Shown piece after piece: positions 23 through 59,786 of a DNA stretch of 64,000 bases. Position 1 is the stretch's first letter, and every line of letters starts with the position of its first letter. The position numbers and the translations under genes were made by a program. Source of the stretch: Phycisphaerae bacterium (GTDB lineage Bacteria > Planctomycetota > Phycisphaerae > UBA1845 > Fen-1342); NCBI GenBank assembly GCA_050115495.1, contig JASFQK010000016.1, forward strand, positions 1-64,000, given 5' to 3'. Below the pieces are notes generated by a model, which saw nothing but the letters and a program-made list of their open reading frames with translations, was not told the DNA's origin and ran no database searches.

Positions 23-191
23 CGGCGTACTCCTCTGCCCAGCGTGGGCGGCTCGGAACCAATCTTGATCCCGAGAGTACGCCGCCTTTTTTCATCCCGC
101 CATCAACGAAATTCGGTTATAGCTCATTGCGCGGCTGCGGCGGTCTGTCGCCCCGTTGGGGCTGTGAACTGGAATGGTTGTGGGCGTGTAC

Positions 192-237
192 CTGGGGCTT
201 ACGCCACCAGGCTATTGACTGGCGCCCCTGCGGGGCT
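192..237. repeat. REP-like dispersed repeat family D, copy 1
   Basis: ctggggcttacgccaccaggctattgactggcgcccctgcggggct; reverse-complement similarity to 35810-35853 and direct similarity to 36773-36814. Confidence 0.7.
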
Positions 238-44562: not shown

Positions 44563-45180
44563 ATGTCCACCGAAACGCCGCTCGGACGGAAGGCCATGCC
44601 GGCCAAGTGCCGGAGCTGTAACCGGCCGATGTACAGCCCGCTGTTCTGTGCGGATTGCCGGACGCTGCATCCGGCGGAGGGGGTCGACCATTTTGCGCTG
44701 CTGGGCGTGTCGGCGAGCTACGACCTCGATCCGGCCGAGTTGCGACAGGCGTACCTGCACTGCTCACGCGACATCCACCCGGACCGGCATGGGGAATGTG
44801 CAGCCGATGCGGCCCTGAGCATGCGATCGAGCGCTCGGCTGAACGAGGCGTACCGCGTGCTGAACGATCCGGTGCTGCGGGCGGAATACCTGCTGGAGCT
44901 GGCCGGTGGGGCGTCTTCCGCCGAGGACAAGAGCGTTCCGGAGGGGGTGCTGGCGCAGGTGCTGATTCTCCGCGAGGAGATCGAAGAAGCCCGGGCGGCG
45001 GGCGATGCGGTGACCCTGACGAACTACGTTCGGCAGGTGCACGAGTTGCACGAGGACGCGGTCGGCCGACTGGGTGACCTGGCTCGGCAGCTTCCCGGCA
45101 CGGAAGAGCTGCGCCAGTCGTTGCGGCAGACCTTGAACGCCGTCCGCTATTACCAGAAACTGCTGGAACAGATTCAGTAG
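44563..45180 (+). CDS. hscB: Fe-S co-chaperone HscB with N-terminal CxxC-CxxC
   Basis: J-domain HPD, LNEAYRVL, RAEYLL; position in operon. Confidence 0.9.
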   Translation: MSTETPLGRKAMPAKCRSCNRPMYSPLFCADCRTLHPAEGVDHFALLGVSASYDLDPAELRQAYLHCSRDIHPDRHGECAADAALSMRSSARLNEAYRVLNDPVLRAEYLLELAGGASSAEDKSVPEGVLAQVLILREEIEEARAAGDAVTLTNYVRQVHELHEDAVGRLGDLARQLPGTEELRQSLRQTLNAVRYYQKLLEQIQ

Positions 45181-45192
45181 GGCTTCGCCGGT

Positions 45193-47133
45193 ATGAGCGA
45201 CCGTGAGACCATCATCGGCATCGATCTAGGCACGACGTTCTCGCTCGTGGCTTACGCGGACGAGAGCGGTGCGCACGTGCTGCGGGATGAGAACGGCGAG
45301 GGGCGGCTGCCGTCGGTCATCGGCGTGGTTCCAGGGGAGGCCGGCGAGGCGCCGCGGGTGACGGTCGGTTGGCCGGCGCGGGAGCACGCCGTCGAGAACG
45401 CCCGTACGACTGTGTATTCGGTGAAGCGGCTGATCGGCAAGGGGATGGAGGACATCAGTCGGGAGCTGCCGTTCCTGAGCTACGCCGTGCAGGGCGGACC
45501 GCGGGACACGGTGCAGGTCGAGATCGACGGGCGGCGGTACACGCCGGAGGAGATCTCGTCGGTCGTGCTGCGCAATCTGCGGGAGCGGGCGGAGCAGCAG
45601 CTCGGCCGGCCGGTGCGCAAGGCGGTCGTTACGGTGCCGGCGTATTTCGACGATACGCAGCGGCAGGCGACGCGCGACGCCGGGCAGGCGGCGGGACTCG
45701 AAGTCGTTCGCATCGTCAACGAGCCGACGGCGGCGGCGCTCGCTTATGGGCTGGGGTTGCGGGGGCAGGCGGAGGAAGCTCCGCCGGCGCGGCCGACGGG
45801 TTCGTTCGCGTTGCCGACGGCGCAGTGTCCGTCGGGGGCCGATCGGCAGGGCGGCCGTGGCGGGGCCGGGCAGACCGTAGCCATCTACGACCTCGGTGGC
45901 GGGACGTTCGATGTATCGATCCTGCACATCGAGGAGGGGGTCTACCAGGTGCTGAGCACCGCCGGCGATACACATCTCGGCGGCGACGATTTCGACCGGG
46001 CCATCATCACGCTGGTGACGCATGAGGTGGCCGAGCAGTTCGGCGTGTCGATCGCTTCGCCGGCGGCCAAGCAGGCGCTGCGGAGTATGGCCGAAGCGGT
46101 GAAGATTCGGCTGGGCACGCAGGATCAGGCGGGGATCGAGCTCGATCTCGGTGAGGGACGCATCTACGAGCGGCGGATTACGCGGGACGAGTTCGAGGGG
46201 CTCGTGGGCGAACTCGTCGAGCGGACGCTGACGTTGTGCGCCCGGGCGCTGGCGGACGCCGGTCTGGGGGTGGGAGATCTGGATCGCGTCATTCTGGTGG
46301 GCGGGTCGACGCGGATGCCGCTGGTTCGCCGGCGCGTGGCGGAGCGTTTCGGCTGCGAGCCGTATACGGCGCTGAATCCGGACGAGGTCGTCGCGGTCGG
46401 GGCGGCGATTCAGGCGTCGATTTTGTCGGGGGCACATCCGGACATGCTGCTGCTCGACGTGATCCCGCTGTCGCTCGGTATCGAGACGATGGGCGGGGCG
46501 GTCGGCAAGCTCATCCTGCGGAACACGACGGTGCCCTGCCGGGCGACGGAGATGTTCACGACGTTCGTCGACGGGCAGACGGCGATCAAGCTGAACGTGC
46601 TCCAGGGCGAGCGCGAACTGGCCCGCGATTGCCGCAGTCTCGGCGAGTTCGAGCTGCGCGATCTGCCGCCGATGCCCGCCGGCATGCCCAAGGTGGAGGT
46701 CGAGTTTCTGGTCGATGCGAACGGTATTCTCGACGTGTCGGCGACGGAGCAGCGCAGCGGCCGCCGGGCGAGCATTCAAATCATGCCGAACCGCGGGCTG
46801 ACGCGGGCCGAGGTCGAGCAGATCACGCGGGAGAGCATCACGCATGCCCGCGAAGACATCGACGCTCATCGCCGCATCGACCTGGTGAACCAGGTGGCGT
46901 TCGATACGGCGAAGACGGAGCAGATGCTGGTGGCGGTGGGGGAGCGGCTCGAGCCGGGGGAGCGTCAGCGGATCGAAAAGGACATGGCCGATTTGCGGGC
47001 GCTGGCGCAGCAGGATTGCGATCTTGACGCGCTGCACGAGGCGTTGAGCGCGTTCGGCCGCAGCACGCTGCGTCTGGCCGAATTGGGCATTCGCGAAGCA
47101 CTGGTTCGGCCGGACAAGCCGGCGGCCGGCTAA
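45193..47133 (+). CDS. hscA: Hsp70-family Fe-S chaperone HscA
   Basis: GIDLGTT, TVPAYF, DLGGGTFDVS, LLLDVIPLSLGIETMGG; lies between hscB and fdx. Confidence 0.88.
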   Translation: MSDRETIIGIDLGTTFSLVAYADESGAHVLRDENGEGRLPSVIGVVPGEAGEAPRVTVGWPAREHAVENARTTVYSVKRLIGKGMEDISRELPFLSYAVQGGPRDTVQVEIDGRRYTPEEISSVVLRNLRERAEQQLGRPVRKAVVTVPAYFDDTQRQATRDAGQAAGLEVVRIVNEPTAAALAYGLGLRGQAEEAPPARPTGSFALPTAQCPSGADRQGGRGGAGQTVAIYDLGGGTFDVSILHIEEGVYQVLSTAGDTHLGGDDFDRAIITLVTHEVAEQFGVSIASPAAKQALRSMAEAVKIRLGTQDQAGIELDLGEGRIYERRITRDEFEGLVGELVERTLTLCARALADAGLGVGDLDRVILVGGSTRMPLVRRRVAERFGCEPYTALNPDEVVAVGAAIQASILSGAHPDMLLLDVIPLSLGIETMGGAVGKLILRNTTVPCRATEMFTTFVDGQTAIKLNVLQGERELARDCRSLGEFELRDLPPMPAGMPKVEVEFLVDANGILDVSATEQRSGRRASIQIMPNRGLTRAEVEQITRESITHAREDIDAHRRIDLVNQVAFDTAKTEQMLVAVGERLEPGERQRIEKDMADLRALAQQDCDLDALHEALSAFGRSTLRLAELGIREALVRPDKPAAG

Positions 47134-47144
47134 GGAGATACGTA

Positions 47145-47561
47145 GTGGGCGGACGTAATCCATACATCGACCAGCCCGACGCGCCGCTGCCGACGAAGAA
47201 GTACACGATCACATTCATTGATGAAGAGCAGCAGCGGCACGTGGTCGAGGTCGATCCGGCCAATCCGCCGGCGAAGGTGACGGGTCGGCCGGGGAGCATC
47301 TTGTCGATCGCGCTCGCCCAGGGCGTCGAGCTGGATCATGCGTGTGGCGGGGTTTGCGCGTGTGCAACATGCCACGTGGTCGTGCGGGAGGGGTACGATT
47401 CGTGCAGCGAGCCGACGGACGCCGAAGAGGACCAGCTTGACGAGGCGTACGGTCTGACGGCGCAGTCGCGGTTGGCGTGCCAGTGTGTGCCGAACGGGGA
47501 GGAGGATTTGGTGGTGGAGGTGCCGAGCTGGAATCGGAATAAGGTGCGGGAGGAGCATTGA
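47145..47561 (+). CDS. fdx: ISC-type [2Fe-2S] ferredoxin
   Basis: HACGGVCACATCHV, SRLACQ; AAGGAG SD. Confidence 0.92.
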   Translation: MGGRNPYIDQPDAPLPTKKYTITFIDEEQQRHVVEVDPANPPAKVTGRPGSILSIALAQGVELDHACGGVCACATCHVVVREGYDSCSEPTDAEEDQLDEAYGLTAQSRLACQCVPNGEEDLVVEVPSWNRNKVREEH

Positions 47562-47574
47562 GGGGGGGAGGGGG

Positions 47575-47870
47575 GAGCCGTCAGCCGTCAGGTACGGGCC
47601 GTGAGCCGGAGTGTGGCATGCTGAAGCCTCTGGCGCCGGCATGTCTTTTTCTCGCGTCGGGGACTACATGCCGGCGCTGCGCTTCGGCATGCCACACTTC
47701 TGTCGATCATCGGTGGATGCTGGCACTGGTGGGCAAGCCACCGGTGGCACCCGGCGATGTAGCGGCCGACCTCCGTGTCGGACGTCGTTGGGCAACGCGT
47801 GTTTCGATCGGCGGTTGACGGATGGTTGGTTCAGCGCGCTTCGAAGCACACTGCTCAAGAGCAGTGGCAC
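47575..47870. repeat. mosaic cluster of REP-like palindromes (family B inverted pair, plus families C, E, F)
   Basis: 47606-47643 and 47667-47698 inverted; cactggtgggcaagccaccggtggcacc; gtagcggccgacctccgtgtcgg; cactgctcaagagcagtggcac (also at 63704-63726). Confidence 0.75.
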
Positions 47871-47903
47871 ACCGGGAGATCACTCCGGGGGCGGGTTGGG
47901 CGC

Positions 47904-47945
47904 AAAAAAGCGGCCCGCCGGGGATAATGCCGGCGGGCCTTTTTT
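47904..47945. terminator. bidirectional intrinsic terminator
   Basis: A6, GGCCCGCCGG/CCGGCGGGCC stem, T6. Confidence 0.85.
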
Positions 47946-48205
47946 CTGGGGGCTGCCACTACGCAGCCACGTTCGCTGCGCTAGGGCAGCCACCGTTTAT
48001 CACTAGGCACTGGACCACCTCCTTTCGGAAAGGGCAACCTACGGCCTTCGCGGTCCAATAGCGACAGGCCGCTAAGCCCCGTCCGCCGGCCGTCGCCCGC
48101 GGACACAACGCGCGATGAACATCGCATCGCTCGGCCGGGCCTCCGTCACGTCCGCATCCCTCGCCCGTTGTTTGAGAGATGTCGGGGGGCGTACGGTGGC
48201 CCTGC
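47904..48205 (-). ncRNA. candidate ~300-nt structured transcript carrying a 9-codon sORF (MPSDKRWLP, 47981-48010)
   Basis: own promoter and terminator; extended SD GAAAGGAGGTGGTCCAG; hairpins around the SD and the stop codon. Confidence 0.5.
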
Positions 48206-48211
48206 ACTATA

Positions 48212-48240
48212 AGTGTAGCCCGTTCAGCGTGTCCCGGCAA
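48212..48240 (-). promoter_or_regulatory. sigma70 promoter
   Basis: TTGCCG-N17-TACACT with an upstream T-tract on the minus strand. Confidence 0.6.
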
Positions 48241-48334: not shown

Positions 48335-50245
48335 CTACTGCACGCCGTGCATCATCCGTTTCAGCGGTCGGATCAGCAGCGCCATCAACGCCGCCCCCAC
48401 GCCGCACATCACGACGAACATCAGGAAGTAGTTCGTCGGCGGCATCTGACCCCACCACGCTCCGAATACCTGGGCAAGCTTCTCGGCGATCGCCGTCGCC
48501 AGGAACCACCCACCCATGAAGAGGCCCACGTGCTTGGCCGGCGCCAGCTTCGTTACCAGCGACAGACCCACCGGGGACAGGCAGAGCTCGCCCATCGTCA
48601 GCACCATGAAGAACAGAATCAGCCACCACACGCTCACCCGGAACGTGGCTGAGGTCAGATACACGTAGTCCACCGCAGCCTTGAACGCCGGCTCGGCGGC
48701 CGCCGCCAGGAACTCGGTGCGGGCTCGCTCCTTCACTTCCGACAGGGCGGTCAGCGTCTTCGTCGCCGGATCCCACCGCAACACCGTCTTCCGGTTCTGC
48801 CCCTCGCCTTCCTCGATCTCGAGCACGCCTTCGGTTGCCGGCCCGTCCTCGAGCTGTATCGTCGGCGACTCGTTCGCGAAGGCGTCCTTCTCCGCTGTAC
48901 GCTCTGCGAATGCCTTCACCGCCTCGATGACCTCGGGCGGCGCGGTCTCCGCCAGCAGCCGGAACCGGTCGAGGTCGGTGAGCACGCCGTGCATGGTCAA
49001 CTGGTGCTGCTTCGCGTCGTACCGCAGACGTTTGGCTCCGTAGTACGTGCGCTTCTCCTGCTCTGCGGTGTACACGTGACCGTCGTCATCTACCGCCAGG
49101 CTGTCGGGCAGCGCCGACAGGGCGGCACTGCTCGCCCCGTTTTCCAGGTGCGCCGCCGGCCACATCACGCCGAACGCCACCGCCACCAGCGCCAGCCCCA
49201 TCACCATCTTCGTCGGTGTCGACGGCTGCCGCTTCCGCCGGTCCAGCCAGACCCAGAAGAACGCGGCCACGGGTGCCAGCGTGATGATGAAGAACGGGTT
49301 GAACGATTGCGTTTGCCCCGAGGTCATACTCGGGTTTCGGAACCAGCTTCCGATCGCCGCACCCCACCCACCGGCCGCCTGCGTCGTTGTCGCCTCCGCC
49401 TCGCTCAGCGTCACCGGTGGGGGTGTGGTCGATGCCAGTTGCAGATTCGTGTGCTTATCGGCCCACACCAGCATCGCGTTCGGGCTCTGCTCGAACGCTG
49501 TCCAGAACAGGATAATGAACGCGAAGACTACCAGCAGCACGATGATCCGGTCGCGCACCACGTGTGGCGGGTGCACTTCCGTTGGGTGTGCCTCCTCGTT
49601 CAGCTCGGTGTTGCCCAAGTCCTGGTTGAACTCGACCAGTTTGCGCTGTCCGATGATGTACACGATCAGGCCCGCCACCATGCCCACACCGGCGGCCCCG
49701 AACCCGTAGTGATAGCCGTAGTGCACGCGCAACCAGTCGCAGATGAGCGGACCGATCAGTGCCCCCAGGTTGATCCCCATGTAGAAGATGGTGAACGCCC
49801 CATCCCGCCGCGGATCCCCTGGCTTGTACAGGGCACCCACCTGCGTCGACACGTTCGGCTTCAGCAGCCCCACGCCAGCGATGATGAAGCCGAGCGCCGT
49901 ATAGAAGAACGGCAACGGCTCGAAAGCCATCAGGAAGTGCCCGATGGTCAGCAGGATCGCTCCGACCACCACCGCCCGCTTGGCGCCCAACCAGCGGTCG
50001 GCGACGAAGCCGCCCACCACCGGCAGACCGTATGCCAACGCCGCGTACGTCCCCAGCAGTCCCGAGGCGTCCTCCTGCGACCAGAAGAAGTGGTTGATCA
50101 TGTACAGCATCAACAACGTCTTCATACCGTAGAAGCTGAAACGCTCCCACAACTCTGTGAAGAACAGGACGTAGAGGCCGCGGGGATGACCGAAGATCTC
50201 CCCCGACCGCGTGGGAGCGGCGGGGTTGGCCGGTTGGGTGGACAC
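48335..50245 (-). CDS. POT/PTR family proton-dependent oligopeptide transporter with extra soluble domain
   Basis: ELWERFSFYGM, GLLKPN, FYMGINLG, GELCLSPVGLS; GTG start after AGGGAG. Confidence 0.92.
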   Translation of the reverse strand: MSTQPANPAAPTRSGEIFGHPRGLYVLFFTELWERFSFYGMKTLLMLYMINHFFWSQEDASGLLGTYAALAYGLPVVGGFVADRWLGAKRAVVVGAILLTIGHFLMAFEPLPFFYTALGFIIAGVGLLKPNVSTQVGALYKPGDPRRDGAFTIFYMGINLGALIGPLICDWLRVHYGYHYGFGAAGVGMVAGLIVYIIGQRKLVEFNQDLGNTELNEEAHPTEVHPPHVVRDRIIVLLVVFAFIILFWTAFEQSPNAMLVWADKHTNLQLASTTPPPVTLSEAEATTTQAAGGWGAAIGSWFRNPSMTSGQTQSFNPFFIITLAPVAAFFWVWLDRRKRQPSTPTKMVMGLALVAVAFGVMWPAAHLENGASSAALSALPDSLAVDDDGHVYTAEQEKRTYYGAKRLRYDAKQHQLTMHGVLTDLDRFRLLAETAPPEVIEAVKAFAERTAEKDAFANESPTIQLEDGPATEGVLEIEEGEGQNRKTVLRWDPATKTLTALSEVKERARTEFLAAAAEPAFKAAVDYVYLTSATFRVSVWWLILFFMVLTMGELCLSPVGLSLVTKLAPAKHVGLFMGGWFLATAIAEKLAQVFGAWWGQMPPTNYFLMFVVMCGVGAALMALLIRPLKRMMHGVQ

Positions 50246-59718: not shown

Positions 59719-59786
59719 TCCCCAATAGCTCAATGGTAGAGCGAGCGGCTGTTGACCGCTTGTAGGTTCGAGTCCTACTCGGGGAG
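59719..59786 (+). tRNA. degenerate tRNA-Asn(GTT), probable pseudogene
   Basis: D arm GCTC-AATGGTA-GAGC, anticodon arm AGCGG-CTGTTGA-CCGCT, T arm GTAGG-TTCGAGT-CCTAC; variable region reduced to 1 nt, G at 37, one acceptor-stem mismatch. Confidence 0.85.

What the first reader, a model, noticed from the sequence alone, without database searches (positions are those of the whole stretch)
47904..48240. Stand-alone transcript with a 17-nt complement of the 16S rRNA 3' end before a 9-codon ORF
Seen on the minus strand: promoter TTGCCG-N17-TACACT, a ~190-nt leader, then GAAAGGAGGTGGTCCAG running into GTG-CCT-AGT-GAT-AAA-CGG-TGG-CTG-CCC-TAG (MPSDKRWLP), a long hairpin over the stop and an intrinsic terminator. 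The plus strand reads CTGGACCACCTCCTTTC, one base from the conserved 16S-end sequence CTGGATCACCTCCTTTC, and the difference still allows a G-U pair. The SD is itself folded into stems (TATTGGACCGC/GTGGTCCAGTG and CCTTT/AAAGG). No same-strand gene follows, so it is not an ordinary attenuator. Inference: a conditionally exposed ribosome-binding or sequestering RNA, or a tightly regulated micropeptide gene.
Basis: partly seen in the sequence, partly recalled or inferred. Interest (0 to 1): 0.75.

Follow-up and report, generated by a model that had tools for sequence, protein, structure and literature searches.

The report
Small mRNA with 17-base Shine-Dalgarno
This is a real, expressed stand-alone mini-gene whose RNA can pair with the whole free tail of 16S ribosomal RNA just before a nine-codon frame; it is a planctomycete version, with a long folded leader, of the published 'rre' small mRNAs, whose purpose is still unknown.

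Summary
On the minus strand, 48026-48010 complements the genome's own 16S 3' end over 17 bases (16 Watson-Crick pairs plus one G-U). Its last G starts a GTG nine-codon frame (48010-47981), followed by a long hairpin and a terminator.

It is a discrete gene. A promoter about 190 nt upstream is conserved in relatives. Four metatranscriptome runs hold identical contigs covering 47938-48199. No same-strand gene follows, and the neighbourhood is shared only within the genus.

It is not a new kind. An extended Shine-Dalgarno that includes the G of a GTG start, then a tiny frame and a terminator, defines the 'rre' small mRNAs (Hahn et al., RNA Biol 2016, PMC5711450). The Rfam family CC2171 begins with the same motif but matches below its threshold.

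Two things are new. The host is a Phycisphaerae planctomycete, whereas rre was reported only from Alphaproteobacteria. A roughly 180-nt leader with covarying helices is conserved across the class and detectable in other Planctomycetota.

The frame, the start codon and its spacing are always kept, but the peptide is not. The likely function is docking on the ribosome, not a micropeptide. No binding test was possible, and the physiological role is unknown.

The parts
48212..48240 (-). Sigma-70-type promoter, TTGCCG-N17-TACACT
   Evidence: Sequence, coordinates. It aligns with TTGACC-N17-nATAAT boxes at the same distance in family relatives. The consensus scan instead picked the overlapping GGGACA-N18-TATAGT. 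RNA contigs begin at 48196-48199.
47903..48205 (-). Whole transcript, about 300 nt. The 5' end is inferred from the promoter and the 3' end from the terminator.
   Evidence: Contigs 100% identical to the window were found in four metatranscriptome runs: 47939-48199 (X2), 47938-48196 (X3), 47999-48196 (X4) and 48000-48197 (X5). Contigs show neither strand nor exact ends.
48027..48205 (-). Structured 5' leader. Own-sequence stretches that hold the helices: P1 48181-48155 (fold only), P2 48132-48110, P3 48104-48081, P4 48080-48032 with apical loop 48060-48052.
   Evidence: RNAalifold recovered P2 and P3 on 31 family sequences. In the model-fitted alignment of 71 distinct rows, P3 and the P4 stems have compensatory changes in all 17 of their pairs. 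P1 rests only on single-sequence folds. No Rfam hit in the leader except one E=7.1 match, BjrC174, reaching in to 48067.
48010..48026 (-). Extended Shine-Dalgarno: 17 nt complementary to the own 16S 3' tail (16 Watson-Crick pairs plus 1 G-U). Its last base is the G of the start codon.
   Evidence: The duplex with the 16S tail is -30.4 kcal/mol, against -9.2 for AGGAGG alone. AGGAGGTG is present in all 68 distinct class members, where complementarity including G-U runs 12-17 nt.
47981..48010 (-). Small open frame: GTG plus 8 codons plus TAG (MPSDKRWLP)
   Evidence: A start codon lies 6-7 nt after GGAGG in 67 of 68 class members (GTG 58, ATG 7, TTG 3; one row ambiguous), with frames of 6-18 codons. 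The three insertions inside the frame are each 3 nt long (L009, L185, L191).
47951..47991 (-). Long hairpin over the stop codon: an outer stem GGCTGC.../...GCAGCC that covaries, and an apical hairpin at 47979-47963 that is nearly invariant
   Evidence: all 10 outer-stem pairs show compensatory changes, and the inner stem is 99% paired. The apical 16-mer has a single exact copy in the genome.
47902..47939 (-). Intrinsic terminator: a 10-bp G-C stem with an 8-nt loop and a T run. It also reads as a terminator on the plus strand.
   Evidence: A terminator at this position is conserved in relatives (columns 364-397).

Best explanation
This is a single-copy, stand-alone gene for a small RNA of about 300 nt. 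It is the Phycisphaerae (Planctomycetota) counterpart of the 'rre' small mRNAs.

Steps shown here:
- It is a discrete unit with its own promoter and terminator.
- It occurs as an RNA-library contig of its own.
- It carries 17 bases that can pair with the entire free 3' tail of the cell's own 16S rRNA, ending in the G of a GTG start.
- The start codon, its spacing and a tiny open frame are kept in all relatives.
- A covarying leader and a covarying 3' hairpin flank this site.

Steps inferred, by analogy with rreB:
- The exposed AAA at the 5' edge of the site acts as a toehold for the 30S subunit.
- The 16S tail then displaces the leader pairing and forms a helix of about 17 bp. This holds the subunit on the GUG start and at the foot of the 3' hairpin.
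- Such a helix favours binding but hinders departure, so translation of the 9 codons is weak.
- The useful output is therefore the ribosome-RNA encounter itself, which sets the RNA's fate or occupies subunits. The peptide is not the product that matters.
- The long leader, absent from the alphaproteobacterial versions, most likely sets when the site is open.
For: Motif and its rarity.

Known kind:
- The Rfam CC2171 consensus begins with the same motif.
- PMC5711450 (abstract and sections 13, 18 and 19 read) describes rreB. It has a 17-nt SD that includes the first base of GTG, a 14-codon frame, 30S co-sedimentation, weak translation and start-codon-dependent stability.
- The paper also reports analogues with 16-17 nt of complementarity in four alphaproteobacterial orders.

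Link between motif and tiny frames: in 113 of 120 public genome loci with the 18-nt motif, the GTG opens a frame of at most 27 codons.

Discrete RNA:
- Four RNA runs from four studies hold identical contigs confined to 47938-48199.
- None has a loose end at those limits.
- The X2 contig has word depth 9979, while contigs touching the flanks are below 10.

Conservation:
- BLAST of the 316-nt element hits 45 of 61 genomes of the family at E<=0.01. By my count of that table, 37 of 61 reach E<=1e-7.
- Covariance model R1 hits 34 of 151 genomes of the class, one copy each.
- R1 also hits 17 genomes of other classes in a 151-genome sample of the phylum.

Structure: 92.4% of cells are paired against 32-53% in slid controls, and 29 of 32 pairs carry compensatory changes.

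Translation signals: 67 of 68 distinct members have GTG, ATG or TTG 6-7 nt after GGAGG, with frames of 6-18 codons. All three indels inside the frame are 3 nt long.

Selection acts on the RNA and not the peptide:
- In the 31 family rows, the codons GGT-GAT-AAA vary mostly non-synonymously: G to S in 6 rows, D to G in 5 and D to N in 2.
- Only 2 changes are synonymous (AAA to AAG).
- These counts are my own, read from the list.

Energetics: -30.4 kcal/mol for the duplex with the 16S tail, against +8.9 to open the site.

Toehold: the AAA is predicted unpaired in the own RNA and in 19 of 30 family rows. One row was dropped because it was mis-anchored.
Against: - No experiment or data set here shows ribosome binding, initiation at the GUG, or even the strand of the RNA. 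Contigs cannot show strand or true ends, and an RNA library can contain DNA.
- Similarity to the alphaproteobacterial rre genes is limited to the 18-nt motif. The rest differs, so common descent and convergence cannot be told apart.
- The Rfam CC2171 score is 30.8 bits against a cut-off of 75.
- Full 17-nt complementarity is not required in the clade. Counting G-U pairs, 10 of 68 members have only 12-13 nt, and same-genus relatives have 13-15.
- For rreB, overproduction did not change growth. The authors argue from this against simple ribosome titration.
- The leader's gating role is inference. The partner of the SD differs among single-sequence folds.
Confidence: 0.65

Rival explanations
1. 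It is an ordinary gene for a functional micropeptide (here MPSDKRWLP), and the long SD merely ensures or tunes its translation.
For: An open frame with a proper start codon is present in all 68 distinct relatives, and indels inside it keep the frame. In one family of the class (L149-L152) an 18-codon frame is conserved with synonymous changes. RreB and RreR are conserved peptides within their clades.
Against: Frame length varies from 6 to 18 codons, and the residues are not conserved across the class. Within the family the conserved codons change non-synonymously but almost never synonymously. The C-terminal residues are simply what the conserved hairpin strand GGCTGC encodes. Synthetic RreB and RreR were unstructured. 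A 17-bp SD helix and a GTG start lowered translation in rreB.
Confidence: 0.1
2. It is a trans-acting regulatory or sponge RNA. Its purine-rich stretch or invariant apical loop pairs with other RNAs or binds a protein, and the frame and the resemblance to an SD are incidental.
For: The size, the own promoter and terminator, the strong covarying structure and the very high contig depth in one RNA run all fit an abundant non-coding RNA. The apical hairpin GCAGCGAACGTGGCTG is almost invariant in the family, which suggests a specific partner. CC2171 is filed in Rfam as an sRNA.
Against: The start codon changes among GTG, ATG and TTG yet stays 6-7 nt from GGAGG in 67 of 68 rows, which is hard to explain without ribosomes. 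The complementarity follows the 16S tail base by base, including a G-U-compatible A/G polymorphism. rreB was shown to sediment with 30S subunits. The apical motif has no second copy or evident target in the genome: 1 exact match, and near matches 16 against 8 in the reversed control.
Confidence: 0.12
3. It is a cis-acting leader (attenuator or riboswitch with a leader peptide) that controls a downstream gene.
For: A long structured 5' region, a short frame and then a terminator is the layout of a ribosome-dependent attenuator.
Against: No same-strand gene follows; the next real gene is a convergent ferredoxin. The neighbourhood is shared only with two same-genus genomes among the loci compared. 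The terminator is a strong 10-bp G-C stem with no alternative anti-terminator evident. RNA contigs stop before or at it. No Rfam riboswitch matches the leader.
Confidence: 0.03
4. It is a chance match or a decayed antisense fragment of a 16S gene end.
For: The motif is by definition the reverse complement of a 16S end. Weak CC2171-model hits elsewhere can be 16S antisense.
Against: Similarity to 16S stops after 17 nt: CCAGTG here against CCAGCC in the gene. Expected chance matches are 0.01 per window. The element is single-copy, conserved with covariation across a class, and present in RNA libraries.
Confidence: 0.01

Closest known systems
rreB, small mRNA of Bradyrhizobiaceae (Hahn et al., RNA Biol 2016;14:1353, PMC5711450)
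   Same: Both are stand-alone small transcripts with their own promoter and terminator. Both have a 17-nt stretch complementary to the whole single-stranded 16S 3' tail that includes the first base of a GTG start, followed by a very short frame. In both, only the first few bases of the site are predicted single-stranded. The genomic context is not conserved outside close relatives. The function is unknown.
   Different: rreB is 165 nt with the SD near its 5' end and a 14-codon frame encoding a clade-conserved peptide. This RNA is about 300 nt, has a covarying leader of about 180 nt before the SD, and has a 9-codon frame (6-18 across the class) whose peptide is not conserved. Its host is a planctomycete, not an alphaproteobacterium. 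There is no sequence similarity beyond the 18-nt motif. Ribosome binding was shown for rreB and not tested here.
rreR, small mRNA of the Rhodobacter/Roseobacter clade (same paper)
   Same: The same extended SD ending in GTG, a tiny frame, and a structured 3' part followed by a terminator. Many copies were recovered by the same 18-nt pattern.
   Different: rreR has a fixed 18-codon frame with a conserved peptide (34 of the 97 small-frame loci not flagged as non-alphaproteobacterial have 18 codons) and a short leader. Its downstream sequence is unrelated.
Rfam RF01867, CC2171 sRNA (Caulobacter; Northern-validated in Methylorubrum, bioRxiv 10.1101/2022.01.24.477521, passages seen)
   Same: The family consensus begins with the same GAAAGGAGGUGAUCCAGUG and ends in a terminator. 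It is the only Rfam model with E<0.001 on this strand. Its function is unknown according to the preprint.
   Different: The score is 30.8 bits against a gathering score of 75. The long closing helix of the family (UCUCAUUGUC with GACAAUGG) is not formed here; the alignment marks those pairs as non-canonical. The model has no leader. In the papers I saw, the Rfam entry is not linked to the rre work; that link is my own reading.

Membership tests
rre small mRNAs (Hahn et al. 2016) | At least 16 nt of contiguous complementarity to the 3' end of the organism's own 16S rRNA, spanning the canonical SD | tested here: met
   17 nt, with 16 Watson-Crick pairs and one G-U, against the 16S end read from G000:C11.
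rre small mRNAs (Hahn et al. 2016) | The last base of the complementary stretch is the first base of a GTG start codon of a small frame | tested here: met
   The G at 48010 is both the end of the motif and the start of GTG, and a 9-codon frame follows.
rre small mRNAs (Hahn et al. 2016) | Stand-alone small transcript with its own promoter and terminator | tested here: met
   The promoter is conserved in position among relatives. The terminator was found. RNA-library contigs are confined to 47938-48199. No downstream same-strand gene exists.
rre small mRNAs (Hahn et al. 2016) | Small frame whose peptide is conserved within the clade (RreB 14 aa, RreR 18 aa) | tested here: inconclusive
   The frame is present in 68 of 68 members, but its length is 6-18 codons and its residues vary. 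The conservation looks nucleotide-level.
rre small mRNAs (Hahn et al. 2016) | SD close to the 5' end of a transcript of about 165 nt | tested here: not met
   About 180-190 nt of conserved, structured leader precede the SD, and the whole RNA is about 300 nt.
rre small mRNAs (Hahn et al. 2016) | Only the 5' bases of the site are single-stranded (proposed seed) and the rest lies in a helix | tested here: met
   In the own RNA, the unpaired probability is about 1 for the three A's and at most 0.45 for the other 14 positions. The AAA is open in 19 of 30 family rows. This is prediction only.
rre small mRNAs (Hahn et al. 2016) | Physical association with 30S subunits, weak translation, and start-codon-dependent turnover | not testable with these tools
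   This needs gradients, reporter fusions and half-life measurements. It has been shown only for rreB.
Rfam RF01867 (CC2171) | Bit score at or above the curated gathering score (75) | tested here: not met
   30.8 bits, E=1.5e-4, at window 47912-48034 on the minus strand. There was no match in the gathering-threshold scan.
Rfam RF01867 (CC2171) | The family's consensus long-range helix that encloses the body of the RNA | tested here: not met
   The alignment marks those pairs as non-canonical and largely deleted here. Only the 5' motif and the terminator align well.
Ribosome-dependent transcription attenuator (leader peptide) | A regulated gene downstream on the same strand | tested here: not met
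   No such gene exists. The region downstream holds a plus-strand ferredoxin gene.

The most novel reading that the evidence does not exclude
The extended-SD mini-genes may not be an alphaproteobacterial curiosity. They could be one widespread class of ribosome-docking RNAs found in at least Planctomycetota, Acidobacteriota, Methylomirabilota, Gemmatimonadota and Betaproteobacteria as well.

In Planctomycetota the RNA may have acquired a conserved sensor domain of about 180 nt that opens or closes the 17-nt docking site. The RNA would then act as an abundant, regulated trap or gauge for free 30S subunits. It might equally act as a chaperone or blocker of the 16S 3' tail during late maturation or hibernation. 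In either case it would not be acting as a messenger.
Probability: 0.2. Interest if true: 0.8.

Novelty: new variant of a known kind. Interest (0 to 1): 0.45.

Why it matters
The rre small mRNAs carry the longest natural Shine-Dalgarno helices known, and ten years after their description they still have no assigned function.

- The same design occurs far outside Alphaproteobacteria.
- In one whole phylum it sits behind a conserved, covarying leader.
- It can be among the most deeply covered contigs in an environmental RNA library.

Together these argue that the ribosome contact is an old and selected function. They also give a second, structurally richer system in which to test it. The leader is a candidate ligand- or condition-sensing domain.

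The design also bears on how far the 16S tail can be engaged in vivo, and on whether cells use RNAs to gauge or hold free small subunits.

Tried and rejected
1. Leader loop pairing with the SD or with the GGTGAT box in the frame.
- In many family members the P4 apical loop reads (A/C)TCACC, like the 16S tail.
- Loop-SD duplex energies averaged -8.6 kcal/mol against -5.5 for shuffled loops. A swap among species gave p of about 0.003 for the SD and 0.013 for the frame.
- However, loop picking failed in several rows, and same-genus relatives (L168, L183) lack the box.
- The box was also not visible in the 45 nt before the SD in most rows of other families.
- I do not claim this pseudoknot.

2. 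Single-sequence folds do not agree on what pairs with the SD.

3. RNAalifold on the 5' third of the MAFFT alignment recovered only P2. P1 therefore rests on single folds alone.

4. The invariant apical 16-mer elsewhere in the genome: 1 exact copy, and 16 near matches against 8 for the reversed control, so no second site is evident.

5. Neighbour conservation: tblastn of five neighbouring frames against 59 related loci hit only the two same-genus loci. There is no conserved partner gene.

6. RNA contigs.
- X4 and X5 hold shorter contigs ending at 47999/48000, inside the frame. Contigs cannot show RNA ends, so I make nothing of this.
- Likewise, the absence of high-depth cover on the flanks is not evidence on its own.

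7. Earlier notes by place and by sequence returned nothing.

8. A literature search for the exact 15-nt strings found only an unrelated wasp taxonomy paper. Searches for rreB/rreR and 'ribosome-regulated expression' found no follow-up on function or on other phyla in the held library. Subscription journals are not covered.

9. The relatives search with the Rfam CC2171 model mixes true hits with antisense 16S ends, so I did not count from it.

Full report
**What is in the sequence**

The minus strand of 47902-48240 holds a compact unit (coordinates).
- A promoter, TTGCCG-N17-TACACT, lies at 48240-48212.
- About 180-190 nt of leader follow.
- The stretch GAAAGGAGGTGGTCCAG lies at 48026-48010, and its last G begins a GTG codon.
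- A nine-codon frame (MPSDKRWLP) occupies 48010-47981.
- A long hairpin at 47991-47951 lies over the stop codon.
- A terminator has a 10-bp all-G-C stem at 47939-47912, followed by a T run.

The genome's only detected 16S gene ends in CTGGATCACCTCCTTTC. The stretch therefore complements the whole free tail over 17 bases, with one G-U pair.

The motif is rare. It occurs once in the window against 0.01 expected. It occurs twice in the 5.97-Mb genome at up to 1 mismatch, once being the 16S gene itself, and never for the reversed control. The 311-nt RNA folds far better than shuffles, z = -5.8.

**It is a discrete gene, and it is in RNA libraries**

The neighbours are as follows.
- Upstream on the same strand, a POT/MFS transporter gene ends at 48335.
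- Downstream there is no minus-strand gene.
- The plus strand carries hscB, hscA and a 2Fe-2S ferredoxin gene (44563-47561), which converge on the same terminator.

Twelve public runs hold part of the region. I laid four metatranscriptome runs, from four studies of one year and one habitat type.
- X2 holds a contig at 47939-48199 (261 nt), and X3 one at 47938-48196.
- X4 holds one at 47999-48196, and X5 one at 48000-48197.
- All four contigs are identical to the window, and each is covered from its first letter to its last.
- No loose ends occur at these limits.
- The X2 contig has a word depth of 9979. The few contigs that touch the flanks are partial matches with depth below 10.

Contigs cannot give strand, exact ends or expression level, and RNA libraries can hold DNA. 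By the tool's own standard this is a hint and not proof. It does fit a stand-alone RNA that starts a few bases after the promoter and ends at the terminator.

**It is a known kind**

A permissive Rfam scan gave one relevant hit, CC2171 (RF01867), at 30.8 bits against a cut-off of 75, with E = 1.5e-4. Its consensus begins with the same GAAAGGAGGUGAUCCAGUG. According to passages of a 2022 preprint, CC2171 is a Caulobacter sRNA of unknown function.

A literature search and two earlier notes of this scan both led to Hahn et al., RNA Biol 2016 (PMC5711450). I read the abstract and sections 13, 18 and 19. The paper reports the following.
- rreB of Bradyrhizobium is a 165-nt stand-alone mRNA.
- It co-sediments with 30S subunits and is weakly translated. 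Both the long SD and the GTG lower translation.
- It becomes more stable when the start codon is removed.
- Analogues with 16-17 nt of complementarity occur in Caulobacterales, Rhizobiales, Rhodobacterales (rreR, 18 codons) and Rhodospirillales.
- The function was left open. Overproduction did not affect growth.

I found no later work on function or on other phyla.

**How widespread the design is**

- In 113 of the 120, the GTG opens a frame of at most 27 codons.
- The 7 exceptions are one locus cut by its end and six ordinary long frames.
- Most loci are alphaproteobacterial: the CC2171 type, rreR and rreB.
- Loci with small frames also carry labels from Planctomycetota, Acidobacteriota or Terriglobia, Methylomirabilis, Gemmatimonadota, Krumholzibacteriia and Burkholderiales.

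These labels are as deposited, and a few may reflect binning errors. One 'Cytophagales' locus, for example, carries an rreR-type sequence.

**The host and the clade-specific form**

Two named MAG loci are identical to loci of genomes in the same class as the window's genome. They are labelled Phycisphaerae and Phycisphaeraceae, so the host is a Phycisphaerae planctomycete.

Conservation was measured in several ways.
- The exact motif occurs in 22 of 401 genomes of the class, with 0 for the reversed control.
- The whole 316-nt element finds matches in 45 of 61 genomes of the family at E<=0.01. By my count of that table, 37 reach E<=1e-7.
- A covariance model of the region from P3 to the 3' hairpin finds exactly one copy in 34 of 151 genomes of the class. 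That includes all 4 sampled in the own family and all 6 in a sister family, but none of 16 and none of 14 in two other families.
- In a 151-genome sample of the phylum, the model also hits 17 genomes of other classes.
- Of eight such loci inspected, six show the SD, a start codon at the usual spacing and a 10-18-codon frame.

**Anatomy supported by comparison**

In 31 family sequences the promoter boxes (TTGACC-N17-nATAAT) sit at the same distance from the SD, so the long leader is real.

RNAalifold recovers leader helices P2 and P3, the nested 3' hairpin and the terminator. The model-fitted alignment has 71 distinct rows.
- 92.4% of cells are paired, against 32-53% when partners are slid by 1-3 columns.
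- 29 of 32 pairs have compensatory changes.
- All measures exceed all 500 shuffles.

That alignment leans towards the model, so these figures are an upper bound.

The apex of the 3' hairpin, GCAGCGAACGTGGCTG, is almost invariant in the family. It has no second exact copy in the genome.

**Ribosome signals**

Among 68 distinct class members:
- AGGAGGTG is always present.
- Contiguous complementarity to the 16S tail, allowing G-U, is 12-17 nt. It is 17 nt in 22 members and 16 nt in 21.
- A start codon lies 6-7 nt after GGAGG in 67 of 68 (GTG 58, ATG 7, TTG 3). One row is ambiguous.
- The frame is 6-18 codons long.

The three insertions inside the frame in the family alignment are each 3 nt long.

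The peptide itself is not conserved.
- Its codons GGT-GAT-AAA change non-synonymously in 13 rows and synonymously in 2. These are my counts from the list.
- Its C-terminal residues are simply what the conserved hairpin strand encodes.

I read this as selection for initiation and a short run of translation at a fixed place in the RNA, and not as selection for a product.

**Likely mechanism**

The duplex with the 16S tail is -30.4 kcal/mol, against -9.2 for the canonical hexamer. Freeing the site in the own RNA costs about 8.9 kcal/mol.

The three A's at the 5' edge are predicted open, and the rest is paired with the leader (P4 loop TATTGGACC, and CCTTT). This resembles the seed-and-melt model proposed for rreB.

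I therefore think the RNA captures a 30S subunit by toehold and strand displacement. The subunit then sits on the GUG and at the foot of the 3' hairpin. The encounter, and not the peptide, is what has been selected. All of this is inference.

The leader's role as a gate is the weakest step. A tempting pairing between a 16S-like loop and the SD has only weak and patchy support.

**Verdict**

- The ribosome-binding reading agrees with published work on the same kind of gene, but is untested here.
- The element fails Rfam's threshold for CC2171 and differs from rreB and rreR in having a long conserved leader and a non-conserved, shorter frame.
- I file it as a new variant of a known kind, in a phylum where it had not been reported.

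Noticed in passing
window 191-237 (+): Acido-Lenti-1 RNA (RF01687) matched above its gathering score: 44.5 bits against 37.
   Followed up: no
window 44563-47561 (+): This is the end of an iron-sulfur cluster operon: hscB (DnaJ plus HSCB_C), hscA (Hsp70) and a 2Fe-2S ferredoxin. The long antisense frame 45226-47163 hits Pfam NAD-GH (PF10712). From memory, that family is known to arise from the reverse strand of Hsp70 genes.
   Followed up: partly
window 47610-47698: An 18-nt inverted repeat (94% complementary, 53 nt apart) lies between the ferredoxin gene and the small RNA gene. It draws chance hits to microRNA models. Low-depth metatranscriptome contigs match pieces of 47666-47874 with joints and loose ends, as a dispersed repeat would.
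   Followed up: no
window 47902-47948: The terminator is symmetric (A run, hairpin, T run) and scores as a terminator on both strands. It may also end the convergent plus-strand operon.
   Followed up: no
L044, L055, L099, L138, L142; L026, L060; rreR-type loci such as L029: In several unrelated clades the tiny frame contains a second SD-like box 10-35 nt after the start. It reads GTGAGGTG in the Acidobacteriota/Methylomirabilis-type loci, GAGGTGGT or GGGGTGGT in Planctomycetia-type loci, GAGAGGTGTC in rreR, and GGTGAT in the window's own family. It remains unexplained and was not tested against chance.
   Followed up: no
L149-L152 (same class, another family): Here the frame is 18-19 codons (pattern MSxxSQDLxxxSNDxxLR) and shows synonymous differences between genomes. 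In this family the peptide may be under selection.
   Followed up: no
L063, L074 (labels Burkholderiales and Bordetella): The same 18-nt motif is followed by 24-26-codon frames that begin alike (VRD-QG). This suggests a betaproteobacterial group of such mini-genes.
   Followed up: no
window 59719-59786 (+): A tRNA gene, 51 bits.
   Followed up: no
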